A DNA stretch of 44,504 nucleotides, taken from a phage. The stretch lies in the sequence record PZ386946.1; one strand, written 5' to 3'. A program made the translations under genes and the position numbers. The notes beneath the pieces are model-generated. The model ran no database searches, had not been told where the DNA came from, and saw only the letters and a program-made list of their open reading frames with translations. This document shows, in pieces, positions 3,337 to 37,164 of this stretch. Every line of letters begins with the position of its first letter. The stretch's first letter is position 1.

Positions 3337-4414
3337 AATCCGCTATGACAGCGCAAAGTTTAAGGCAACAATCGACGAGAATGGATTCTTAGTCGACACT
3401 CCAGTGGTCGCACGTCTCGGTGTGCAGGTCTACTACATGGATGACGGCCGCACTGTCCGAGAGTTTCGCCCAGCGGAGGAGGTTTTCAAGGATGAATCTC
3501 TAGCCAGCTACCAGGGTAAGCCAATGACTCTTGACCATGTTTTCGTTAACTCAGAGAACGCTAAAGAGGTAGTAGTTGGCTCAGTTGCTGGAAAGGCAGA
3601 GCCATTAGGCAGCTCCGTGGTTGCTCCAATTGTTATTTACGATAACACAGCCATTAAGGAAGCTATGGCAGGTAACGCAAAGGAGTTATCCGTTGGATAC
3701 TCATCAGTTATTGATTACACCCCAGGTTGGGGTGACCCTGTTACTGGTGAGTACTTCCTTAAGTCTGAAAGTGAGCTATTCGACGTACCAGAAGGATGGC
3801 AGGAGTTCGACGCAATTCAGCGTGACATTAAAGTGAATCATCTCGCAATGGTATATCGCGGTCGCGCAGGTATTGCCAAATTGAATATGGACGGTGAGCA
3901 GGAAAACCCGTATACTACTGACGTTGATATCAATAAAGAGGATAAACAGGAAATGATTAAGATTAAACTCGACGGCGCGCAGGAATTCGAAGTCGCCCCG
4001 GAAATCGCTTCTCACATCGAAGCACTGAACGCAAAGGCTGACACTGCAATCGCAGAGCGTGATGCACTGAAAGCAAAAGTAGATGCAATGCCTTCTGAAA
4101 TCGAAGCTGCAGTTGCTAAAGCGAAAGCTGACGCTGATGCTCTTGCTGCTCTGGTAGCTGTTGCTGCTGAAGCTGGTGTAAAGGCTGATGGCCTGGATGC
4201 TAAAGGCATTAAAGTTGCCTACGTTAAAGAAATCTCCGGCCTTGATGTTAGTGAGAAATCTGATGCGTACATCGACGCGGCGTTCGACATTGCCAAAGAA
4301 TCTGATAAAATGGCTGAAGTACGTAAAGCGACTACCGCTTCCGACAAATCTGACAGCGCCGATGAGCCTAAGAAATTAGACCCACGTGCTCGTTTAGCTA
4401 AAATTAAGAAATAA
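3329..4414 (+). CDS. head morphogenesis protein (putative prohead protease/scaffold-like)
   Basis: 361 aa; overlaps portal stop; C-terminal Ala/Lys/Glu-rich predicted coiled coil typical of scaffolding proteins; function inferred from position. Confidence 0.45.
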   Translation: MSKIRYDSAKFKATIDENGFLVDTPVVARLGVQVYYMDDGRTVREFRPAEEVFKDESLASYQGKPMTLDHVFVNSENAKEVVVGSVAGKAEPLGSSVVAPIVIYDNTAIKEAMAGNAKELSVGYSSVIDYTPGWGDPVTGEYFLKSESELFDVPEGWQEFDAIQRDIKVNHLAMVYRGRAGIAKLNMDGEQENPYTTDVDINKEDKQEMIKIKLDGAQEFEVAPEIASHIEALNAKADTAIAERDALKAKVDAMPSEIEAAVAKAKADADALAALVAVAAEAGVKADGLDAKGIKVAYVKEISGLDVSEKSDAYIDAAFDIAKESDKMAEVRKATTASDKSDSADEPKKLDPRARLAKIKK

Positions 4415-26832: not shown

Positions 26833-27306
26833 TTACTCTTTAGCTTTTCGTGCTGCCTCATTGGCGGCTTTAATTTTGCGCCAGGATCGGCACTCAGGCT
26901 TAGTAGCCAGCTCAGCTTCTGTTACCACGCGCAGCATATGACGCTTTTTGCATCGCAGCGTAAGCGGCTTTCCGTTGCCATCGAATTGCAGATCCGGTCG
27001 GCAGAATGTGGCTCGAAAACCTTCTCCATTTCTTTTGTAGTAGTTGTGTGACAGCTGAGCTCCACGTGCAGAAATCATACCACGCTTAAACCATTCTTCT
27101 ACAGCCTGAGGAGTTACCTTTAACTGCTTCGCAATGTTTGCCTTTGTGCCGAAGAAATCAAGAACCATCTCTAGCCGTGCGCGTAGCCCGGCTCTTACTT
27201 CATCTTTTAAAACGTAGTAACCTGAAGGTCGTTTTCGTTGTTTTTTGTCTTCAGTGCGGACGGTTCCGTTATTGCCGTTAATGGTGCGCTTGTCAACTGC
27301 ATTCAT
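26833..27306 (-). CDS. HTH DNA-binding protein (putative transcriptional regulator)
   Basis: start ATG 27306 with GAGGT RBS (track start 27342); helix-turn-helix-like IAKQLKVTPQAVEEWFKRG; basic termini. Confidence 0.5.
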   Translation of the reverse strand: MNAVDKRTINGNNGTVRTEDKKQRKRPSGYYVLKDEVRAGLRARLEMVLDFFGTKANIAKQLKVTPQAVEEWFKRGMISARGAQLSHNYYKRNGEGFRATFCRPDLQFDGNGKPLTLRCKKRHMLRVVTEAELATKPECRSWRKIKAANEAARKAKE

Positions 27307-27407
27307 TTCATTACCTCGATAGCATTTTTTGTTAAAAGTCATTCTGATTTGATGGTAGTATTGTACTCAATTAAACGCTACAAGACAATTTTTATAGGAA
27401 TTTAGAT

Positions 27408-29402
27408 ATGTTGCCTATCGAGAAGCTGATTGCCAACTTCGATAAAGAAAGAATCAAACAGATCCAGAAGGATTACCAGTTTGGCGAGATAACCCCTTAC
27501 GAGTTCCAGTGCGTTACATTTGATGCAATTGGGAAGGCTATTGGCAAGTATGAGGCTCCATTTATCGCGGACCTCTCCGTGTCTGCTGGTAAGACAATCA
27601 TTCTTGCTATGATTGGTAAGCGCATGGAGCAGCTTGGGCTTCCTTATATGGTTCTTTCTCGACAGTCAGAGATAATCAGCCAGAACTCAGAAGAGCTTCG
27701 TAATTTCGGCATCCGTAACAGCGTGTATTGCGCTGGTCTTAACGTTAAATCAGTTTACTACCCAACTATAGTGGCCAGTGAGGGTACAGCGGCTAATGGC
27801 TTGTTTAAGGGGCTTGGTGACTATGTCCCTGCCGTTATCGCTATCGATGAGTGCCACATGCTTGATGCTATGGATATCGTGGAAGCCGAGGAGAACGAAG
27901 AAACATTTGAGCAAATGAGCACAAAGAAAGGAGAGATGGTTTTTAAGGATGGCGTAAATACAGGGTTGCTTGGCACTGGTCGTGCACAGTACACGCTGAT
28001 TATCACCGAGATGAAACGTCGATGCCGCGAGAAGTACGGTCGCGAGCTTCGTATCTTTGGCCTAACTGGTAGCCCGTATCGCAACAACGATCATATCGTC
28101 GTTAGTAACCCAAACATCCGTGGATTCTGGCGAAAGACGGTAATTCAGGTTCCAACCAATTACCTGGTTGATTTGGGATTTGTTGTGCCAACAGTTTACG
28201 GAGAGGTTGGTGATTTGGGTTACGACCTTTCAGAGTTTGCGCCTGACGGAAGCGATGGTGTGAAAGATTTCAGCAAGAAAGAAATGGATGCGATGCAGGA
28301 AAAAATTCATCAAAACCAGTCCATGACTCAAAAGATTATGCAGTTCGCAGCCAAGTTTATGGAAACTCGTAACGCAGCACTAGTAACTTGCTCAGGCAAG
28401 CGGCATTGCGAGGAAGCAGCCGCGTCGCTTCCTGAGGGTGTAACCTGGGCTATAGTAACTGACTCTACCGGTGAGAAAAAGCGTCGTGAGATTCTTTCTG
28501 ACGCAGCTGAAGGTAAGTATAAATTCATCTTTCAGATTGGTTGCCTCACAACCGGCGTGAACGTTCCGCCATGGGACACGTCAATAATTCTTCGCAAGGT
28601 TGGTAGCATCACGTTACTGATTCAGCTTTTGGGGCGAGGTATGCGAATTCTTAAGAAGAGGCATAAGGAAATGGGAATGGTTAAGGATGATCACGTGGTG
28701 CTGGACTTCGCTGGTACTCTTGATGACATGGCGGAATTGTACTTTGACCCAATCATAGAGGAAGTGCAGGACCAGAAATTTAAGTCTTCACGCAAAGGCG
28801 GCGATGAGCCAAGAATATGTCCGGCCTGTAGTTACGAGAACTCTCCTTTTGCTCGTCGTTGCAATAACGTAATTGACGGGAAGCGTTGTGAGCATTTTTT
28901 TACATTTCGCTTATGTGAAGATATAGAGGACCCGCAGACAAAAGTTACTATTAAGAAGGGTTGTGGTGAAAAGAATGATATCGCCGCTAAAAACTGCCGC
29001 TGCTGCGGAGAGATGCTTATTGACCCCAACGCAAAATTGTCTGGAAAGATGTATCGACAAGGTGATTGGTTGAGAGTTTACGGATTCAGCATTGGATTAA
29101 CTAAAAACCAAACTGGAATCGTTGCTCGCTATGAAATCATGTCGCATAGTGGGGATAGGTTTGTTGCTTACGAAACTTTCTTCCCAGAGAGTGACCATCG
29201 AGTTTGCTCTGTTAAGTGGAAGGCATTTTGCCAGGCGCACATCCAGAACAAAACGGAGGCATTTCGCATAGGAAGACTTCGAAACGCCAAAATGATTATG
29301 AATAACGCAAGTCAATTTCGTGAGCCAATGCGCGTGACTCATAGAAAGAACCAGAAGGGGCAGGACATTATTGCAAACAAATCTTTTACTATGGAGGATT
29401 GA
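27408..29402 (+). CDS. SF2 ATP-dependent helicase (DExH) with C-terminal Cys-rich zinc-finger-like region
   Basis: 664 aa; Walker A SAGKT, DExH box IDECHML, C-terminal CPAC...C...CxxC cluster. Confidence 0.8.
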   Translation: MLPIEKLIANFDKERIKQIQKDYQFGEITPYEFQCVTFDAIGKAIGKYEAPFIADLSVSAGKTIILAMIGKRMEQLGLPYMVLSRQSEIISQNSEELRNFGIRNSVYCAGLNVKSVYYPTIVASEGTAANGLFKGLGDYVPAVIAIDECHMLDAMDIVEAEENEETFEQMSTKKGEMVFKDGVNTGLLGTGRAQYTLIITEMKRRCREKYGRELRIFGLTGSPYRNNDHIVVSNPNIRGFWRKTVIQVPTNYLVDLGFVVPTVYGEVGDLGYDLSEFAPDGSDGVKDFSKKEMDAMQEKIHQNQSMTQKIMQFAAKFMETRNAALVTCSGKRHCEEAAASLPEGVTWAIVTDSTGEKKRREILSDAAEGKYKFIFQIGCLTTGVNVPPWDTSIILRKVGSITLLIQLLGRGMRILKKRHKEMGMVKDDHVVLDFAGTLDDMAELYFDPIIEEVQDQKFKSSRKGGDEPRICPACSYENSPFARRCNNVIDGKRCEHFFTFRLCEDIEDPQTKVTIKKGCGEKNDIAAKNCRCCGEMLIDPNAKLSGKMYRQGDWLRVYGFSIGLTKNQTGIVARYEIMSHSGDRFVAYETFFPESDHRVCSVKWKAFCQAHIQNKTEAFRIGRLRNAKMIMNNASQFREPMRVTHRKNQKGQDIIANKSFTMED

Positions 29403-29824
29403 TTTTGAATATCACAGACAAAGAAGATTACATTGAGTTTTACCCTGGTCCAGTTAAGTCATGCCCTAAAGAGGATGACGAACAAATCTTTTGCTCTGAC
29501 TGGGTTAAGTACAACTATCCGAAGATTGTTTATTGGCACACTGTTAATGAATCGATGAAGAGCATTGGTCAAGCAAGAAAAGACCAGGCTAAGGGGCTTC
29601 TCAAAGGCGTATCAGACTGCATGTTTTTGATACCTGAATCCGTGCGAGGAAGGTATCAATTTGGCGCAATAGAGATAAAGAGAGCAGGAAAAACTCAAGC
29701 AAGCCCAGTCAGCAGTGAACAGAAGTCCTTCCTGAAAAGCGTAAGAGAATCAGGAGGCTTCGCGGCTGTTGCCTACGGTCGCGAGGGTTTTCTGGCAGCA
29801 TTTAAAGAAATGATTTCAAAATAG
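29399..29824 (+). CDS. VRR-NUC domain nuclease (putative)
   Basis: PD-(D/E)XK-like D...EIK (SDCMFLIPE...AIEIKRAG); non-ATG start (TTG 29399 or 29405, GGAGG RBS); overlaps helicase stop. Confidence 0.55.
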   Translation: MILNITDKEDYIEFYPGPVKSCPKEDDEQIFCSDWVKYNYPKIVYWHTVNESMKSIGQARKDQAKGLLKGVSDCMFLIPESVRGRYQFGAIEIKRAGKTQASPVSSEQKSFLKSVRESGGFAAVAYGREGFLAAFKEMISK

Positions 29825-29864
29825 CACGAATTGCTAAATATTAATCGGTGAGGTGGTGTATTAT
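29820..29864 (+). promoter_or_regulatory. bipartite motif copy
   Basis: overlaps stop TAG of VRR-NUC gene; TATTATCACTTCATCGAAACGA downstream. Confidence 0.5.
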
Positions 29865-29896
29865 CACTTCATCGAAACGAATAAGGAGATAAAGAA

Positions 29897-30103
29897 ATGA
29901 AATTAATGAAATTGAAACCTATCGATATCAGAGTTGGTGATTATATCTATACTGGATATACAGGAAAAAAGAAATGGCGAAGAGTATCTGAAATAATTGT
30001 CCAATCAGCATATAGGTATACATTCACCATGCCATCGTGGAACTTATCATCTGGTAGTGGTTGTGAATTTTTAGTAAAGGGTGTTCGTAACAATACTTTT
30101 TAA
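29897..30103 (+). CDS. hypothetical protein
   Basis: 68 aa ORF after bipartite motif, RBS AAGGAG. Confidence 0.45.
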   Translation: MKLMKLKPIDIRVGDYIYTGYTGKKKWRRVSEIIVQSAYRYTFTMPSWNLSSGSGCEFLVKGVRNNTF

Positions 30104-30105
30104 TT

Positions 30106-30150
30106 AATAGCACGAATTGCTAAAGACGATTTTAAAAGATGGGGTATAGT
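30106..30150 (+). promoter_or_regulatory. bipartite motif copy
   Basis: AATAGCACGAATTGCTAAAG, 22 nt, TATAGTTACTCTATCGAAACGAAACG. Confidence 0.5.
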
Positions 30151-30186
30151 TACTCTATCGAAACGAAACGCAGAGAGAGAAACAAA

Positions 30187-30381
30187 ATGGCTACTATCTA
30201 CACTGGTAAATTATACGAATCACGCAAAACTGGTTACGAGTATGAATTAGTAATCACCGCTGATGGTTATGTTCTTGACGATGGTGAAGGTTATGCTTTC
30301 GAAGTTATCCCAACCTACAAGGATGATTTAGAGACTGTTAAAAACGTATTTGGCGAAAAATTTGACGAGGTATCAGAATGA
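30187..30381 (+). CDS. hypothetical acidic protein
   Basis: ATG 30187 (track start 30139 lies in motif); N-terminus MATIYTGKLYE similar to 1637 ORF. Confidence 0.45.
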   Translation: MATIYTGKLYESRKTGYEYELVITADGYVLDDGEGYAFEVIPTYKDDLETVKNVFGEKFDEVSE

Positions 30382-30536
30382 GAGAGGCAATCGTAAACTG
30401 GAAAACCGGAGAAGATTCAAAGTTCTTCTTCAATACATTCCAACAATATATTGACAAGTTTGTTTTCGTGATTGATGGTGGATGTGAGGTTGTTGTTCCA
30501 ATTAAGCTGGTTGATGGATTGGAGGTATCAGAATAA
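30378..30536 (+). CDS. hypothetical small protein (52 aa)
   Basis: not in track; ATGA overlap with upstream stop and stop overlapping next start; fills otherwise uncovered coupled array. Confidence 0.35.
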   Translation: MREAIVNWKTGEDSKFFFNTFQQYIDKFVFVIDGGCEVVVPIKLVDGLEVSE

Positions 30537-30757
30537 TGGCTATCTTTACTTTTGATAAGCAATGGGAGCTATTTCAGGCAATGGCAGCTCAGGAGTTGAC
30601 TAAGGCTGGATATAAACATGATGTTTGGGATTTGGCGTGGTGCCTTGATTATAGTTTTGAAGAAGACTACCTGAACACTGATATTGAAACATGGCGCGAC
30701 CGCATGGTTGCTGATATCGAAGAGATGAAAAAAGATTGCCCGGAGGATTTTGAATAA
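30536..30757 (+). CDS. hypothetical acidic protein
   Basis: 73 aa ORF in coupled array. Confidence 0.45.
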   Translation: MAIFTFDKQWELFQAMAAQELTKAGYKHDVWDLAWCLDYSFEEDYLNTDIETWRDRMVADIEEMKKDCPEDFE

Positions 30758-30882
30758 TGAAAATTGTAGATAAAGAGATGTTTAGGGTTGCCCAGAATTT
30801 TGCTGAATTTGCAGTTGAGTTTCAATCAGAAGAGCATTGGATGTGCGCTAGAGAATATCTAAAAATGGCTTACGGATTATGA
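30757..30882 (+). CDS. hypothetical small protein (41 aa)
   Basis: not in track; start overlaps upstream stop (TAATG), stop overlaps next start. Confidence 0.3.
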   Translation: MKIVDKEMFRVAQNFAEFAVEFQSEEHWMCAREYLKMAYGL

Positions 30883-31127
30883 TAGTTGAAACCGGACGCG
30901 CCGCCGTATGGGCGCATTGTGGAGAGGCAGGATTGCAGGATGACATTAAGAAAATATCACGATTCTTTGACATAAAAGATATCAGTGTTGTTTTTAATGG
31001 TAAATTCTCTTACATGGATGAGCGACCAAGAAAATATGTAAGAGTTAAGCCAGGTGTGAGAATTGATGTTAATGAGTTCCTCAAATCTGATGGATACAAG
31101 TTTAAGATAACGAAGCCTAAGGATTAA
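30879..31127 (+). CDS. hypothetical protein
   Basis: 82 aa ORF in coupled array. Confidence 0.45.
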   Translation: MIVETGRAAVWAHCGEAGLQDDIKKISRFFDIKDISVVFNGKFSYMDERPRKYVRVKPGVRIDVNEFLKSDGYKFKITKPKD

Positions 31128-31129
31128 GT

Positions 31130-31381
31130 ATGTTGGGTTTAGATTTCCAGCCAGAGCATTACGATTTAGTGCATGGGAAAAGTGGAGCGAAGTTTAGGGC
31201 AATACCTATTGCTGATTGGTTCCCTCCCGATTATGTGGATGTGAACGCAAAAACTAAAGAAGGTAAGTGGGTGCAGATTTATCACTCTCCAGCATGCGGA
31301 AACCTTTGCATGACTGACCTTGACCAGAAGTTAACAATTAGTGCTGATTTAATCGACTACTGGTTGAAAGAAGTTGAATGA
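31130..31381 (+). CDS. hypothetical protein
   Basis: 83 aa ORF in coupled array. Confidence 0.45.
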   Translation: MLGLDFQPEHYDLVHGKSGAKFRAIPIADWFPPDYVDVNAKTKEGKWVQIYHSPACGNLCMTDLDQKLTISADLIDYWLKEVE

Positions 31382-31464
31382 AAAGCCTAATACTAGTAGC
31401 ATCGTTACCACTGTTTAGCTTTACTATCTTATACTTTATCGTAATGAATTAAGGAACTTATATA

Positions 31465-32595
31465 ATGGCAACTGCAAAGATTACAAACGAAGAGCTTCGC
31501 GAAGAACTAGCTAATGGCATGACCAACAAGGCAATCGCAGAGAAGTACGGAATGAACATTCGCAACGTTGAATTGCGTCGTAGTAAATTGGCCAAGCAAG
31601 GTGAAGGACATGGTCGTGATGTTAGCAACCTAATTCCCCAAGGTTATGCAGTTAAGGGCGTATCTAGCTTAATTGGTGCTGATGGTGAGATTAAGCAGCA
31701 ATGGGTTAAATCCGATATCGACAAGGAGAAGCAAGAAGAGATGATGCTTCAGGCAATTCAGGCACTAAATGATGATTTGCCTCGCGAGAAACCAAAGCCG
31801 CTCAGCGTATCATCATTTGAGGACACCCTTAGCCTTTACCCTGTATTTGACCTTCACATTGGCGCAATGGCTCACCATGCTGAGTGCGGCGAGAACTATA
31901 GCACTGAAATCGCCGAGCGAGTTCTTAATAGTTATTTTGATTACGCCGTTGCAAAGGCACCAAACTCCAAGAAAGCTGTATTGCTGATTGGCGGTGACTT
32001 CCTTCACTCTGACGGAATGGAGGCGGTAACCCCAACCAGTCGTCATATTCTTGATCAGGATAGCCGTTATCACAAACTAGTTTACGTAGCAGTGAGAGCT
32101 ACCCGACGAGCAATTAGTCGTATGCTTGATAAGCACGCCGAGGTTGAGGTGCAGATTATCCCAGGAAACCACGATCTTTCAGGAATGATTTGGTTGCGTG
32201 CAGCAATGGCAGCTTTCTATATGGATGAGCCTCGGGTTAATGTTGATGCGTCCCCCGCCGCACTTCACGTAACGCAGTTCGGAAAGACGCTGCTTGGTTA
32301 CTGTCATGGACATGAACTCAAAAAGCCTGACACCAGACTATCAACACTAGCGCGAGATCATCGCAAGGCTTTTGGTGAATCGGAGTATGTTTACACACAT
32401 TCTGGCCATTACCACCATCAAACGATTACAGAGGGCAACCTAGGTATTGATGAGTCTCATGGTCAGCTTGGGGCGAAAGATGCGTACAGTGCTAACGGAG
32501 GATATCGATCTTACCGACAGGCTTCAGTAATTATCTACAGCCCGAAGTTTGGTGAGATTGGTCGATTCACTTGCCGACCTGAAATGTTTAGCTAA
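31465..32595 (+). CDS. calcineurin-like metallophosphoesterase with N-terminal HTH-like domain
   Basis: 376 aa; phosphoesterase motifs DLHIG, GGDFLHSDG, PGNHD, CHGHE, HSGHYHH; N-terminal about 50 aa HTH-like (MTNKAIAEKYGMNIRNVELRRSKL). Confidence 0.7.
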   Translation: MATAKITNEELREELANGMTNKAIAEKYGMNIRNVELRRSKLAKQGEGHGRDVSNLIPQGYAVKGVSSLIGADGEIKQQWVKSDIDKEKQEEMMLQAIQALNDDLPREKPKPLSVSSFEDTLSLYPVFDLHIGAMAHHAECGENYSTEIAERVLNSYFDYAVAKAPNSKKAVLLIGGDFLHSDGMEAVTPTSRHILDQDSRYHKLVYVAVRATRRAISRMLDKHAEVEVQIIPGNHDLSGMIWLRAAMAAFYMDEPRVNVDASPAALHVTQFGKTLLGYCHGHELKKPDTRLSTLARDHRKAFGESEYVYTHSGHYHHQTITEGNLGIDESHGQLGAKDAYSANGGYRSYRQASVIIYSPKFGEIGRFTCRPEMFS

Positions 32596-32668: not shown

Positions 32669-33142
32669 ATGATTTACGTATTTGATATCGATGGAACTAT
32701 AGCTAATAATGAGCATAGAAGTCACCTCTTGCCATTAAGCGACCTTCACTTGACTTCAAGTTGGAAGGATTACAATAAAGCCTGTTCTGGAGACTCACCA
32801 ATAATTCCAATGATAAAAATGATGAATGCTTTAGCTGAGTCATCTCAAGTTTACATAATGACCTCAAGAAGTGATGAAGTTGAATGGAGAACCCTTGAGT
32901 GGCTTCAGGATAATGATGTTGAATATGATTCAATACGCATGAGAAGCAGACATGACAACCGAAAGGATTACTTAATTAAAGAGGAGTGGCTAAATAATCT
33001 TTGCGACGGAAAAAAGGAAGAGATAGTTATATTTGAAGATAACCCTCAGGTTATAAAACACTTAAGAAATTGTGGATATGCAGTTATGGCCGTATGTGAA
33101 TATGAAGAGCTACCTAAAGATTGCGAATCTCACGGAGAATGA
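32669..33142 (+). CDS. HAD-family phosphatase (T4 Pnk 3'-phosphatase-like / nucleotidase-like)
   Basis: 157 aa; N-terminal DxDGT motif (FDIDGTIA), further blocks (IMTSRSDE, RHDNRKDYLIKEE, IFEDNPQVI) recalled as similar to the T4 polynucleotide kinase phosphatase domain. Confidence 0.65.
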   Translation: MIYVFDIDGTIANNEHRSHLLPLSDLHLTSSWKDYNKACSGDSPIIPMIKMMNALAESSQVYIMTSRSDEVEWRTLEWLQDNDVEYDSIRMRSRHDNRKDYLIKEEWLNNLCDGKKEEIVIFEDNPQVIKHLRNCGYAVMAVCEYEELPKDCESHGE

Positions 33143-33144
33143 AA

Positions 33145-33699
33145 ATGACTAAATTATTTATCCTTAACGGCCCCGCTGGAGTTGGCAAGGACACTATAGC
33201 GGATATCATGGTTGAGACTGGTGTTGTTGATGGGAAAGTTTCATTCAAGTCACCAATGTTCGATGTAGCCAAGGGGATGCTATCAAAGGATGAATTTGAT
33301 TGGTTTATTGAGAACTACAACAACCGAGACGAGAAAGAAAAGAATCAAGAGATACTTGGCGGTAAAAGCATTCGAGAATTCATGATTTGGATTAGCGAGT
33401 CTGTAATGAAGCCAGTCTTTGGTGATTATGTTTTCGGTAAAAGGCTCGCCCAGTCACTTGGTGATGGTTGCTACATTTGCGCTGACGGTGGGTTTGCTAG
33501 CGAGATTAAGCCACTGATCGACACTGGTGTTGAGGTCACGTTAATCAGGTTGCATAGGGAAGGGTACACATTTTATGGCGATAGTCGCTCATACATTCAC
33601 GGGGTGTGTGCAAGAGAGATTGATGTTCATGTTGTTGATTGTGATATTAATGGAACATCATCATTGGTAAGGCACGTAATAAATAGCACGAATTGCTAA
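33145..33699 (+). CDS. P-loop nucleotide kinase (dNMP kinase-like), paralog 1
   Basis: ATG 33145 (track 33121 is TTG); Walker A LNGPAGVGKDT; overall block pattern recalled as resembling T4/T5 dNMP kinases; C-terminus reads through the motif (ends INSTNC). Confidence 0.65.
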   Translation: MTKLFILNGPAGVGKDTIADIMVETGVVDGKVSFKSPMFDVAKGMLSKDEFDWFIENYNNRDEKEKNQEILGGKSIREFMIWISESVMKPVFGDYVFGKRLAQSLGDGCYICADGGFASEIKPLIDTGVEVTLIRLHREGYTFYGDSRSYIHGVCAREIDVHVVDCDINGTSSLVRHVINSTNC

Positions 33700-35580: not shown

Positions 35581-37164
35581 TCACCCCAATAGTCTTGGAT
35601 TAATGTAAACTTTATCACCAATCAGGCAAGTATAGTTTTTCTCATCAAGCATTGGCAGCAAGTGATCTTTAATCTTCGTCATTACTCCCGCTTGAGCCTC
35701 GAACGGCTTAACCTTTCGAGCCGCTTCATACAACGAACGAATGCCTACTACTCCTTTCCCGTTTTTGCCTTGCTTAATCAGAATGTCAATCAGCTTGTTC
35801 ATCTCGGCATTGTCTCCAGCGTGACCAGCCGCGTTGGCAGATGACAAATAAGTCTTGCTAAGTTCCTGGAACATAATTACAGCTTCCTGCATTGTATCAA
35901 GCTCAATTTCTCTCGACTTCTGAGGGCTACCGCCATTTGGGTTGAACCAGTTGCGCACAGTGTGAAGAACGGCCGCAATCCTGATTGCCTGCTTATCGAA
36001 CTTACCAAGCGCGCCGCGCAACATTGTGTGGGAATACTTACCGCCGTCCGCAAGGTGAGGTTCCATTTCCTGACGCGCGCGGTTGAGATATTTCATTGCT
36101 GAATTACTAACTGTCAACTTAACTTCTTGCTCATTCATTATCTCGTGAACTAAACGGAAGTAATCAGCCTTCAACCCGCCATCAATTGGTTCATAAGTCG
36201 ATTCGCCATTTTCATCAACGAATACACGCTCGCCCAGGAATGACTTTTCACGTACAAGCAGGAAACGCTCAGATACACCGATACCACGCGCGCCAGCGTT
36301 CATGATAGCGTTGATTGTCTCATCCTGTGCAATTACAGAGATGCAACCCATAGCAACGAAACTCATGTTGTTTTCTGCGTTCGCACGCGCGATAGATACG
36401 TTACCCGCATCCCATGCTTTAAGCACAAGCTCACTGTTCGTTTTCTTTGATCCGTCACCATAGGTCATGCCTAATAGTGAGTTAACGCTAGTTGCTTCGT
36501 CAGAAATTACCGCGAAGCTTCCCTGGCGGTTGTTTATTCGCGCAAGACCTTCAGGTGTGGTATCGGACACGGGGAAAACGATATCGCACAGCTTTTCCAG
36601 TTTTTCCTCTAGCTCTTCTTTTTCCTCGAAAAGAGAAGCCATCTCTGACGGAGATTTTTCCTGCTTCATCTCTTTGGATAACGCAGATAGTTTAGCCATG
36701 ATTTTCTTGCGCTCACGCTTTCGCACTTCATTCAGTCTCTCAGTCTCGGCAATCATTGGTGCAATTGAAAGTGAGTTAATGGCTGACTTACCAGTCGATG
36801 GAGGCTGACTTGTAACTACGTACAGAGACGTAGGCTGCTGAGTTCCATGATACTCAACTGTAAAGCGTCCCAGCATGGCAGCGGAAATACACCCCAGGAA
36901 GTGCATATAAGCTGAAGACTCAGGGAACTGAACCGAGCGAGCGATGTTAGATGAGAGTTTTCCGACAATATCAACATCATTGCCTAGTGAGATTACGGGA
37001 TACTTGTCATTAGCCGCATCAATCTCGACTGGCGCTTTCCAGAATGATTGAGACTGGCGATAGCCATTAGCATTGATAGCGACGCGCAGTGGTGGGAGGT
37101 TGTCTGCGGCAGCGATTGCCATAACCTGTTCAACAGATAGTTTATCTTCGTTGAAATCAAACAT
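35581..37164 (-). CDS. DUF3987-like P-loop NTPase with C-terminal wHTH-like domain (putative replication/recombination ATPase)
   Basis: 527 aa; Walker A-like VTSQPPSTGKSA, Walker B-like FAVISDEATS, central coiled-coil, C-terminal GKNGKGVVGIRSLYEAARKV; N- and C-terminal ends shared with ORF 39916..40461. Confidence 0.55.
   Translation of the reverse strand: MFDFNEDKLSVEQVMAIAAADNLPPLRVAINANGYRQSQSFWKAPVEIDAANDKYPVISLGNDVDIVGKLSSNIARSVQFPESSAYMHFLGCISAAMLGRFTVEYHGTQQPTSLYVVTSQPPSTGKSAINSLSIAPMIAETERLNEVRKRERKKIMAKLSALSKEMKQEKSPSEMASLFEEKEELEEKLEKLCDIVFPVSDTTPEGLARINNRQGSFAVISDEATSVNSLLGMTYGDGSKKTNSELVLKAWDAGNVSIARANAENNMSFVAMGCISVIAQDETINAIMNAGARGIGVSERFLLVREKSFLGERVFVDENGESTYEPIDGGLKADYFRLVHEIMNEQEVKLTVSNSAMKYLNRARQEMEPHLADGGKYSHTMLRGALGKFDKQAIRIAAVLHTVRNWFNPNGGSPQKSREIELDTMQEAVIMFQELSKTYLSSANAAGHAGDNAEMNKLIDILIKQGKNGKGVVGIRSLYEAARKVKPFEAQAGVMTKIKDHLLPMLDEKNYTCLIGDKVYINPRLLG

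What the first reader, a model, noticed from the sequence alone, without database searches (positions are those of the whole stretch)
29897..31381. Array of seven small, translationally coupled ORFs of unknown function after the VRR-NUC gene
Seven ORFs of 41-82 aa are packed head to tail with overlapping stop/start codons (29897, 30187, 30378, 30536, 30757, 30879, 31130). Two were missed by the six-frame track because they are under 60 aa. Several products are acidic. Compact arrays of small acidic proteins in early regions often encode DNA mimics or other host-protein inhibitors.
Basis: inference. Interest (0 to 1): 0.5.

Follow-up and report, generated by a model that had tools for sequence, protein, structure and literature searches.

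The report
Small accessory gene operon, T1-like phage
The seven small ORFs are real, conserved genes of a T1/Rtp-like coliphage, already annotated as hypothetical proteins in its relatives; their function is still unknown, and the DNA-mimic idea finds no support.

Summary
The window is a nearly complete genome of a Drexlerviridae (Braunvirinae, Rtp/JeanPiccard-like) coliphage. All seven ORFs exist at the stated coordinates. O2-O7 are under purifying selection (dN/dS 0.02-0.25), as strong as on the neighbouring VRR-NUC gene. They are not one coupled array. O1 stands alone behind its own copy of a 62-nt promoter module. A second copy follows in an 83-nt gap and heads O2-O7, which are joined by ATGA or TAATG overlaps, with one 2-nt gap. 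O4, O5, O6 and O7 occur across the family (T1 gp19, gp18, an unannotated T1 ORF, gp17). O2 is found in Braunvirinae and a Rogunavirus. O3 and O1 are exchangeable cassettes, and O1 is absent from this slot in all 12 relatives examined. None of the seven matches Pfam, NCBIfam, PADLOC or PDB sequences. O4 folds confidently as an acidic four-helix bundle with no informative structural neighbour. O5, at 41 aa, has a weak and indirect resemblance to lambda Kil that direct tests do not confirm. JeanPiccard carries orthologues of O2-O7 and is still strongly restricted by type I, II and III R-M systems, which argues against an Ocr-like DNA mimic. Verdict: an ordinary phage accessory operon, probably made of small binding proteins, function unresolved.

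The parts
29399..29824 (+). VRR-NUC nuclease gene (context; T1 gp21 / Rtp rtp54 homologue)
   Evidence: Pfam VRR_NUC E 2e-7. 85-88% aa identity in Braunvirinae and 53% in T1.
29820..29881 (+). Promoter module, copy 1: AA-TAGCACGAATTGCTAAA, a 20-nt spacer, TATTAT, then the CATCGAAACGA leader. It heads O1.
   Evidence: The 17-mer occurs 13 times in the window against 0.17 expected. The modules align. The 62-nt direct repeat with copy 2 is. Promoter function is inferred.
29897..30103 (+). O1: 68 aa, basic (pI 10.0), a stand-alone cassette gene with a strong GGAG ribosome-binding site
   Evidence: It has no homologue in the same slot of 12 relatives. The best relative is a 69-aa ORF of Enterobacter phage Phc (57% aa). 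It also resembles the C-terminal third of 156-aa phrog_12951 proteins.
30106..30167 (+). Promoter module, copy 2 (-10 = TATAGT). It heads O2-O7.
   Evidence: The same module sits directly after VRR-NUC in G8, ACG-M12, Rtp, 12397II and others.
30187..30381 (+). O2: 64 aa, acidic (pI 4.2, net -9); Rtp rtp55 family (phrog_6031)
   Evidence: PHROG E 2.6e-34. 78-94% aa identity in Braunvirinae and Jk06, with two paralogues in JeanPiccard. dN/dS 0.05-0.15. The alternative ATG at 30139 lies upstream of the -10 hexamer of the promoter module.
30378..30536 (+). O3: 52 aa, acidic; a variable cassette gene (phrog_22569)
   Evidence: Present in JeanPiccard, G8, ACG-M12 and JulesPiccard. Absent in Rtp, 12397II, AN_ECEAS, phiA2-1, Jk06 and T1. 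dN/dS about 0.1.
30536..30757 (+). O4: 73 aa, very acidic (pI 4.2, net -12); T1 gp19 / Rtp rtp56 family (phrog_2676); predicted four-helix bundle
   Evidence: 106 homologues, all about 73 aa and all unnamed. AF2 pLDDT 92, pTM 0.79. No informative PDB neighbour. The only BFVD neighbours are uncharacterised phage proteins. dN/dS 0.04-0.22.
30757..30882 (+). O5: 41 aa; T1 gp18 / Rtp rtp58 family (phrog_2180); probably a two-helix peptide; weak Kil-like signal
   Evidence: dN/dS 0.05-0.25, but only 59-73% aa identity to most relatives. The Kil tests are negative or inconclusive.
30879..31127 (+). O6: 82 aa, basic (pI 9.5); Rtp rtp59 family (phrog_2817; relatives match Pfam DUF7334)
   Evidence: dN/dS 0.02-0.11, the most constrained gene of the array. 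Only 22 cluster representatives in 1.84 billion proteins. DUF7334 is matched by 11 of 18 family members.
31130..31381 (+). O7: 83 aa, acidic (pI 5.0); T1 gp17 / Rtp rtp60 family (phrog_4596)
   Evidence: dN/dS 0.04-0.10. The AF2 model is unusable (pLDDT 51). No PDB or Pfam relative.
31465..32595 (+). SbcD/Mre11-like 'DNA repair exonuclease' gene (context; T1 gp16 / Rtp rtp61). It marks the end of the slot.
   Evidence: phrog_704 E 5e-149 and a weak Pfam Metallophos hit. Conserved in all relatives.

Best explanation
The seven ORFs are genuine protein-coding genes. They are this phage's version of the small-gene cluster that Rtp/T1-like phages (Drexlerviridae) carry between the VRR-NUC nuclease gene and the SbcD-like exonuclease gene. 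There are two transcription units, each headed by a copy of a conserved 62-nt promoter module that recurs 13 times in the genome. Unit 1 is O1 alone, a promoter-plus-ORF cassette found in this slot only in this phage. Unit 2 is O2-O7, six genes joined by ATGA or TAATG overlaps or a 2-nt gap. They are probably read from one mRNA with translational coupling, which would fix their relative amounts. O4, O5, O6 and O7 occur across the family (T1 gp19, gp18, an unannotated T1 ORF, gp17). O2 is found in Braunvirinae and a Rogunavirus. O3 is present in some relatives and absent in others. In many relatives an extra cassette and a diverged promoter module sit before O5, so in the window two ancestral units have been fused. 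What is shown: the gene status, the conservation pattern, the anatomy, and the fold of O4. What is inferred: the products are too small to be enzymes and have no known domain, so they most likely act stoichiometrically as small binding proteins. Their targets would be host proteins, or the phage's own DNA-handling proteins, before lysis. O5 is a candidate two-helix peptide of the Kil type, which blocks cell division. O4 offers a conserved acidic surface for a basic partner. O6 is a basic protein of the DUF7334 type. The overall confidence of 0.55 combines about 0.9 for the anatomy with about 0.4 for the binding-protein, host-takeover function.
For: Coding status: + strand ORF coverage is 97.5% against 20% in shuffles. 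dN/dS for O2-O7 is 0.02-0.25, against 0.08-0.12 for VRR-NUC. All seven hit phage-only PHROG families. Orthology: tblastn against 12 relatives, the Rtp and T1 annotation, and PHROG assignment of T1 gp19, gp18 and gp17. Operon anatomy: junctions and SD motifs; the 17-mer at 13 copies against 0.17 expected; the 62-nt direct repeat flanking O1; the same module in T1 and Klebsiella relatives. No terminator-like site lies between 29897 and 31464, and the region as a whole shows no excess of terminator-like sites. Cassette behaviour: O1 is absent from every relative's slot. Extra cassettes and a diverged promoter module lie before O5 in Rtp, JeanPiccard, ACG-M12, JulesPiccard and phiA2-1. In T1 and Klebsiella phage K50 the slot also holds a DNA methyltransferase. 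Binder rather than enzyme: the sizes are 41-83 aa; there are no Pfam, NCBIfam or PADLOC domains; and O4 is a compact four-helix bundle with many invariant acidic residues. O5 lead: both O5-type peptides and true Kil peptides touch phrog_2055 at E 1e-4 to 2e-6. A database member of O5's 90% cluster is named 'Kil protein'. O5-type genes head small-gene clusters in unrelated siphoviruses and sit directly after a promoter module in T1 and K50.
Against: No function is demonstrated for any of the seven. Conservation of O4-O7 across the family, together with strong purifying selection, fits a housekeeping role in phage DNA metabolism as well as it fits host takeover. The Kil link fails every direct test. 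These are BLASTP, hhalign at 1-2% probability, an ungapped profile score not above shuffles, and no Pfam Lambda_Kil hit at E up to 10 for any of 15 family members. Promoter activity, co-transcription, translational coupling and timing are all inferred from sequence. The TTGCTA-to-TATAGT spacing of 22 nt does not fit a standard sigma-70 promoter.
Confidence: 0.55

Rival explanations
1. Phage-internal role. The family-wide members O4, O6 and O7 (and perhaps O5) would be small accessory subunits or regulators of the phage's own replication, recombination or repair machinery. Candidate partners are the flanking helicase, VRR-NUC nuclease and SbcD-like exonuclease. On this reading they do not target the host.
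For: They lie inside the replication/recombination module, between the VRR-NUC and exonuclease genes, in every relative. They are conserved from Braunvirinae to T1 and to Klebsiella relatives, with dN/dS of 0.02-0.2, like core genes. O6 is basic, with a conserved N-terminal segment and a basic tail, which would suit nucleic-acid binding.
Against: There is no detectable similarity to any replication or recombination accessory protein. O5-type genes also occur in unrelated phages, heading clusters of small genes away from such enzymes. The slot accepts and loses cassettes freely, which is more typical of accessory loci.
Confidence: 0.25
2. One or more of the acidic products (O2, O4, perhaps O3 or O7) is a DNA mimic that blocks restriction enzymes or other host DNA-binding proteins.
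For: O2 and O4 have pI 4.2 and 23-26% acidic residues. Many acidic positions in O4 are invariant across 35 homologues. In T1 and Klebsiella phage K50 the same slot holds a DNA methyltransferase gene, a class of gene that the BASEL authors cite as a suggested counter to restriction.
Against: JeanPiccard (Bas02) carries orthologues of O2-O7 and is still restricted 1e-4- to 1e-6-fold by EcoKI. It is also strongly restricted by type II and III systems. Most Drexlerviridae are unusually sensitive to R-M. The O4 model resembles no known mimic. None of the seven hit any PHROG family annotated as anti-restriction or anti-CRISPR. Acidity is common among cytosolic proteins and says little by itself.
Confidence: 0.1
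3. O5 is a true, very diverged member of the lambda Kil family and blocks FtsZ-ring assembly in a ZipA-dependent way.
For: The window's O5 hits phrog_2055 ('Kil protein for bacterial septation inhibition') at E 1.1e-5, and Opt-79's homologue at 1.1e-4. Lambda, HK620 and g341c Kil hit the same profile over the same region at 2e-6 to 9e-5. One cluster member is named Kil in a TPA record. O5 has a similar size and a likely helix-turn-helix layout, with a Gly-containing turn in most relatives.
Against: BLASTP finds nothing. hhalign gives 1-2% probability and aligns a different register. The register implied by phrog_2055 scores -10.5, below shuffles. No member hits Pfam Lambda_Kil. The genomic context is different, with no cIII or gam neighbours. 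The window's own O5 has Gln where Kil has its turn Gly.
Confidence: 0.15
4. The ORFs are chance open frames or decayed remnants and are not expressed as proteins.
For: O1 has no close homologue for a selection test, and it resembles only the C-terminal third of a longer family.
Against: Coverage is far above shuffles. O2-O7 are under purifying selection. Each start has an SD motif. An O1-type ORF of the same length exists as an independent, coupled gene in phage Phc.
Confidence: 0.02

Closest known systems
Rtp rtp55-rtp60 and T1 gp19-gp17: the hypothetical-protein cluster between the VRR-NUC and exonuclease genes of Drexlerviridae
   Same: Orthologous genes in the same order and slot. O2 = rtp55, O4 = rtp56 / T1 gp19, O5 = rtp58 / T1 gp18, O6 = rtp59, O7 = rtp60 / T1 gp17. 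The same promoter module lies upstream.
   Different: The window adds O1 with a second promoter copy and has O3. It lacks the rtp57-type cassette and the diverged promoter before O5, and it lacks the Dam methyltransferase that T1 and K50 carry in this slot.
Lambda Kil peptide (FtsZ/ZipA-dependent division inhibitor; PMC3961180, PMC11762379)
   Same: O5 is a peptide of about 40 residues with a probable helix-turn-helix hairpin. Both touch phrog_2055.
   Different: Direct sequence or profile similarity is not significant. The genomic context differs. The activity is untested.
DNA-mimic anti-restriction proteins (T7 Ocr, ArdA, T4 Arn, PBS2 Ugi)
   Same: O2 and O4 are small and strongly acidic.
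   Different: No sequence or fold similarity. A relative that carries the orthologues is efficiently restricted.
Promoter-linked mobile gene cassettes: lambdoid 'morons' and the T4 promoter-early stem-loop (PeSL) cassettes (from my own knowledge, not checked here)
   Same: O1 is a single small ORF with its own promoter copy, bracketed by two 62-nt repeats. Other phages hold a different ORF in the same position.
   Different: No terminator follows O1. Recombination at the modules is inferred from comparative anatomy only.
Gp54 of phage Bas11: a small, non-essential Drexlerviridae protein that triggers CapRel-SJ46 (PMC11578894)
   Same: A small (66 aa), non-essential protein of unknown primary function from the same phage family.
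   Different: None of the seven ORFs, nor the 66-aa cassette of ACG-M12, matches any PDB chain. The paper reports a crystal structure of Gp54, so it should be among those chains.

Membership tests
Drexlerviridae small-gene cluster (Rtp rtp55-60 / T1 gp19-17; PHROGs 6031, 2676, 2180, 2817, 4596) | Significant sequence match of each product to the family | tested here: met
   PHROG E-values of 1e-15 to 1e-36 for O2 and O4-O7. tblastn identities of 59-96% in Braunvirinae and 33-39% for O4, O6 and O7 in T1. T1 gp18 falls in the same PHROG as O5.
Drexlerviridae small-gene cluster (Rtp rtp55-60 / T1 gp19-17; PHROGs 6031, 2676, 2180, 2817, 4596) | Same genomic slot and order, between the VRR-NUC and SbcD-like exonuclease genes | tested here: met
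   Annotated regions of JeanPiccard, G8, ACG-M12, Rtp, 12397II, T1, JulesPiccard, AN_ECEAS, phiA2-1, Jk06 and Opt-79.
Translationally coupled operon | Stop/start overlap or near-abutment between consecutive same-strand genes, with SD motifs inside the upstream gene and no internal promoter or terminator | tested here: met
   Met for O2-O7: overlaps of 4, 1, 1 and 4 nt and one 2-nt gap, and no terminator-like site between 29897 and 31464. Not met for O1/O2, which have an 83-nt gap holding a promoter module. Actual coupling cannot be tested with these tools.
Lambda Kil family (Pfam Lambda_Kil; PHROGs 3924 and 2461) | Significant sequence or profile similarity to Kil | tested here: not met
   BLASTP finds nothing. 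hhalign gives 1-2%. The ungapped profile score is not above shuffles. There is no Pfam hit at E up to 10 for 15 members. The only link is a transitive one through phrog_2055.
Lambda Kil family (Pfam Lambda_Kil; PHROGs 3924 and 2461) | Helix-turn-helix hairpin core of about 35 residues with a Gly-Asp turn (PMC11762379) | tested here: inconclusive
   The family alignment shows two conserved amphipathic segments separated by a variable loop. Most relatives have Gly in that loop, but the window has Gln.
Lambda Kil family (Pfam Lambda_Kil; PHROGs 3924 and 2461) | Blocks Z-ring assembly in a ZipA-dependent way | not testable with these tools
   This needs induction in E. coli with a Z-ring reporter and in ftsZ9 or delta-zipA ftsA* backgrounds.
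DNA-mimic anti-restriction proteins (Ocr / ArdA type) | Strongly acidic protein | tested here: met
   O2 has pI 4.2 and net charge -9. O4 has pI 4.2 and net charge -12.
DNA-mimic anti-restriction proteins (Ocr / ArdA type) | Sequence or fold relationship to a known mimic | tested here: not met
DNA-mimic anti-restriction proteins (Ocr / ArdA type) | Carrier phage is protected from type I restriction | tested here: not met
   Published data for JeanPiccard (Bas02), which carries orthologues of O2-O7: EOP on EcoKI of 3e-6 to 6e-5 and on EcoCFT_I of about 2e-3. This is indirect, because it concerns a relative and not this phage.
Promoter-plus-ORF cassette (moron / PeSL-like) | A single ORF with its own promoter, bracketed by repeated regulatory modules, and present or absent among close relatives | tested here: met
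   Met for O1. The 62-nt repeats lie at 29820-29881 and 30106-30167. O1 is absent from 12 relatives. JeanPiccard and AN_ECEAS hold other ORFs between two module copies. Promoter activity was not tested.

The most novel reading that the evidence does not exclude
The O2-O7 operon is a host-takeover kit. On this reading at least one conserved member is a new kind of inhibitor. O5 would be a division inhibitor found across Drexlerviridae that works like Kil without being demonstrably related to it. O4 would be a new acidic four-helix decoy for a host DNA-binding or defence protein. The 62-nt promoter modules would serve as recombination joints that let such genes be swapped between phages.
Probability: 0.15. 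Interest if true: 0.55.

Novelty: new member of a known kind. Interest (0 to 1): 0.25.

Why it matters
About half of the genes in T1-like phages are small ORFs of unknown function (PMC13164509). These phages are common laboratory and fermentation contaminants and are used in defence-system studies. This work pins down which of the seven genes are family-wide, which are exchangeable cassettes, and how they are probably transcribed. That gives a short, ordered list for deletion and expression experiments. It does not reveal a new mechanism. If O5 or O4 proved to be host inhibitors they would add to the known set of small phage effectors, and that would be the main gain.

Tried and rejected
1. 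Lambda Kil membership for O5. I followed the phrog_2055 hit with BLASTP, three hhalign set-ups including a widened 16-sequence alignment, an ungapped profile scan with shuffles, and Pfam at E up to 10. All were negative.
2. Identity with the CapRel trigger Gp54 of Bas11. No PDB sequence hit was found for any ORF or for the 66-aa ACG-M12 cassette.
3. Deep homologue searches. The word-indexed search returned only 3 hits for O5 and only close relatives for O4 and O7. The exhaustive search for O6 found 22 representatives. Its two long hits are PKD or tail-repeat proteins, which I take to be spurious.
4. Structure. The O7 model was too poor to search (pLDDT 51). The AlphaFold-database library was unavailable.
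5. PDB profile searches for the O6 and O7 families found nothing.
6. PADLOC and NCBIfam found nothing.
7. Rfam found only a tRNA elsewhere in the window.
8. Literature searches for T1-family transcriptomes or for the 17-mer found nothing usable.
9. A consensus sigma-70 and terminator scan showed no enrichment in the region.
Full report
WHAT THE WINDOW IS
The region matches 99 phage records at nucleotide level. Almost all are Escherichia phages of the family Drexlerviridae, subfamily Braunvirinae (Rtp, JeanPiccard/Bas02, ACG-M12, Veterinaerplatzvirus), at 86-88% identity. The window begins with a terminase gene. It contains structural genes, recombination genes, a primase, two helicases, lysis genes and one tRNA, so it is essentially a whole phage genome of 44.5 kb.

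THE OBSERVATION
The upstream gene is a VRR-NUC nuclease (Pfam E 2e-7). The downstream gene is an SbcD-like 'DNA repair exonuclease' (phrog_704).

Three points need correcting:
- Only O2/O3, O3/O4, O4/O5 and O5/O6 overlap (ATGA, TAATG, TAATG, ATGA). O6/O7 are 2 nt apart. O1 and O2 are separated by 83 nt.
- O1 (pI 10.0) and O6 (pI 9.5) are basic. O2, O3, O4 and O7 are acidic, and O5 is mildly so.
- Nothing shows that this is an early region.

ARE THEY GENES?
For O2-O7 I compared codons with orthologues in up to nine relatives. dN/dS is 0.02-0.25, the same range as the VRR-NUC gene at 0.08-0.12. Each start has a Shine-Dalgarno-like motif inside the preceding gene, except O6, which has only a weak GGA and an ATGA overlap. 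All seven hit phage-only PHROG families of unknown function.

O1 has no close relative for a selection test. However, a 69-aa ORF 57% identical to it is an independent, overlapped gene in a small-gene cluster of Enterobacter phage Phc. I conclude that all seven are real genes, with slightly less certainty for O1.

TRANSCRIPTIONAL ANATOMY
A 17-mer, TAGCACGAATTGCTAAA, occurs 13 times in the window with up to 3 mismatches, against 0.17 expected. In most copies a 20-21-nt variable spacer follows, then TATAGT or TATTAT, then a conserved CATCGAAACGA leader, then a gene start.

Two copies form a 62-nt direct repeat at 29820-29881 and 30106-30167, bracketing O1. Hence O1 is its own unit and O2-O7 form a second unit. 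No terminator-like site lies between 29897 and 31464, and the 7-kb region around the array shows no excess of terminator-like sites.

The longer 80-aa reading of O2, which the G8 and JulesPiccard records use, begins at 30139.

The module is conserved in T1 (9 copies) and in Klebsiella Drexlerviridae. It is absent from the Skatevirus and Cedarrivervirus loci I looked at.

COMPARATIVE PATTERN
tblastn of the seven products against 12 related loci, read with the records' annotation and PHROG assignments, gives the following:
- O2, O4, O5, O6 and O7 equal Rtp rtp55, 56, 58, 59 and 60, and are present throughout Braunvirinae.
- O4, O5 and O7 are in the same PHROG families as T1 gp19, gp18 and gp17.
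- O6 matches an ORF at T1 40242-40460 that the T1 record does not annotate.
- O3 is present in four relatives and absent in the rest.
- O1 is absent from this slot everywhere, and no phage record matches it at nucleotide level.

Relatives carry other cassettes. JeanPiccard has a second O2 paralogue with its own promoter copy. AN_ECEAS has an unrelated ORF in the same place. Between O4 and O5 some relatives have a 61-64-aa or a 66-aa gene. In the rtp57-type relatives a diverged copy of the promoter module precedes O5. In the window the O4 stop overlaps the O5 start, so two ancestral units are fused here.

In T1 and in Klebsiella phage K50 the same slot also holds a DNA methyltransferase. None turned up among the window proteins I scanned.

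WHAT THE PROTEINS ARE
None of the seven has a Pfam hit (E up to 0.1). NCBIfam gave only one sub-threshold match for O2 (E 0.024, 14.4 bits against a cut-off of 27), and PADLOC gave nothing. None has a PDB sequence relative, even at E up to 10. Profile searches for the O6 and O7 families also found nothing.

O4:
- It has 106 homologues, all about 73 aa and all unnamed, from phage-sized contigs.
- Its C-terminal half is almost invariant and rich in conserved acidic residues.
- AlphaFold2 gives a confident four-helix bundle (pLDDT 92, pTM 0.79).
- Among predicted viral structures it matches only uncharacterised proteins, some from unrelated phages such as Xanthomonas DIBBI, Hafnia Pocis76 and Skarpretter.

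O6 has only 22 cluster representatives among 1.84 billion proteins. Its two long hits are repeat proteins, which I regard as spurious. Eleven of 18 family members match Pfam DUF7334.

O7 could not be modelled (pLDDT 51). O1 resembles the C-terminal third of 156-aa proteins encoded near one genome end in tunaviruses.

THE KIL LEAD
Evidence for a link:
- O5 hits phrog_2055, annotated 'Kil protein for bacterial septation inhibition', at E 1.1e-5.
- Lambda, HK620 and g341c Kil hit the same profile at 2e-6 to 9e-5.
- One member of O5's 90% cluster is named Kil in a TPA record.
- Kil is a 47-aa helix-turn-helix peptide that blocks FtsZ-ring assembly through ZipA (PMC3961180).

Evidence against a link:
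- BLASTP finds nothing.
- Profile-profile comparison gives 1-2% probability and aligns a different register.
- The register implied by phrog_2055 scores below shuffled controls.
- No O5-family member touches Pfam Lambda_Kil.

O5-type genes are widespread in Drexlerviridae. They also head small-gene clusters in Skatevirus and Cedarrivervirus phages. So O5 may work like Kil, but it is not a demonstrable member of that family.

THE DNA-MIMIC IDEA
O2 and O4 are acidic enough to be mimics. The evidence is otherwise against the idea. The published plating data for JeanPiccard (Bas02) are the nearest thing to a functional test, because that phage has orthologues of O2-O7:
- EOP 3e-6 to 6e-5 on EcoKI.
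- EOP about 2e-3 on EcoCFT_I.
- No plaques on EcoRI or EcoRV.
- EOP about 1e-5 on type III systems.

The BASEL authors also note that most Drexlerviridae are unusually sensitive to restriction. An Ocr-like function for the shared genes is therefore unlikely. Mimicry directed at some other DNA-binding protein is not excluded.

MOST LIKELY MECHANISM
Shown: this is a conserved accessory operon with exchangeable promoter-plus-gene cassettes.

Inferred: its products are small stoichiometric binding proteins made in fixed proportion by translational coupling. They would act on host proteins, or on the phage's own DNA-handling proteins, before lysis.

My confidence by part:
- Anatomy (gene status, conservation, two units, cassettes): about 0.9.
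- The 'binding protein for host takeover' reading: about 0.4.
- A phage-internal role: about 0.25.
- A Kil-like role for O5: about 0.15-0.2.
- A DNA mimic: about 0.1.

VERDICT
The finding is real but ordinary. The genes are already annotated as hypothetical proteins in dozens of relatives, and nothing here points to a new kind of system. Interest is low to moderate.

Noticed in passing
window 1564, 20108(-), 21950, 25789, 26839(-), 29822, 30108, 33684, 37656(-), 40459, 41272, 42096, 43009: There is a conserved promoter module: the palindrome TAGCA-N5-TGCTA, a 20-21-nt spacer (often a small hairpin), TATAGT or TATTAT, and a CATCGAAACGA leader. TTGCTA lies 22 nt from the -10 hexamer, which is too far for a sigma-70 -35 element. 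The palindrome centre falls near -42, the geometry of a class II activator site. A phage 'transcriptional regulator' (phrog_2856, window 26833-27342, minus strand) is a candidate binder. I found no paper that mentions the motif.
   Followed up: partly
L006 (T1) 40242-40460: T1 has an unannotated homologue of O6 (39% identity, E 6e-16). It lies between gp18 and gp17 as annotated and overlaps the ends of both.
   Followed up: partly
L006 (T1) 40309 and L018 (Klebsiella phage K50) 2740: A copy of the promoter 17-mer lies inside the coding sequence of the O6 homologue, where it encodes ..IAK... The K50 copy is a perfect 17/17 match, and a TATTAT-like element follows. This may be an internal promoter for the downstream genes. 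The window's O6 lacks it.
   Followed up: no
L004 3186-3261, L001 4568-4648, L003 3544-3619, L008 3344-3419, L010 3185-3260: Relatives that carry an extra rtp57-type gene after O4 have a diverged promoter module (TAGCACTTTTTGTTAAA ... TATATT ... CATCAACAACG) just before the O5 homologue. There O5-O7 look like a separate unit. The window, 12397II and AN_ECEAS have lost both the cassette and the module.
   Followed up: partly
L002 (vB_Ec-G8) 3346-3471; L019 2456-2605: The 41-aa O5 homologue of G8 is annotated 'glycosyltransferase'. The 50-aa family phrog_26091 carries the same label. Peptides of this size cannot be glycosyltransferases, so this looks like a propagated annotation error. The KanT1 paper reports a similar mislabel from Phold.
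   Followed up: no
window 33121-33699 and 40656-41270: There are two paralogous genes like deoxynucleoside monophosphate kinase. Both hit phrog_139 and phrog_31701.
   Followed up: no
window 39916-40461 versus 35581-37164(-): A 181-aa ORF (phrog_7327) also matches the C-terminal part of the DNA helicase family phrog_2373. The full helicase gene on the other strand hits phrog_7327 in turn. This may be a duplicated or detached helicase C-terminal domain.
   Followed up: no
window 43593-43667: A single tRNA gene (Rfam 58.5 bits), as reported for other T1-like phages.
   Followed up: no
window 31382-31464: The 83-nt spacer between O7 and the exonuclease gene has no terminator hairpin. It contains TAGCA..TTTAGC..TATACT..TTATCG, which may be a degenerate copy of the promoter module.
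   Followed up: no
BASEL S1 Data (PMC8594841), Bas03 JulesPiccard: JulesPiccard plates at 0.15-1 on EcoKI, whereas JeanPiccard plates at about 1e-5. Both carry O2-O7 orthologues. I did not check whether the difference comes from recognition-site counts or from the differing cassettes (JulesPiccard has the 66-aa gene and JeanPiccard the rtp57-type gene).
   Followed up: no
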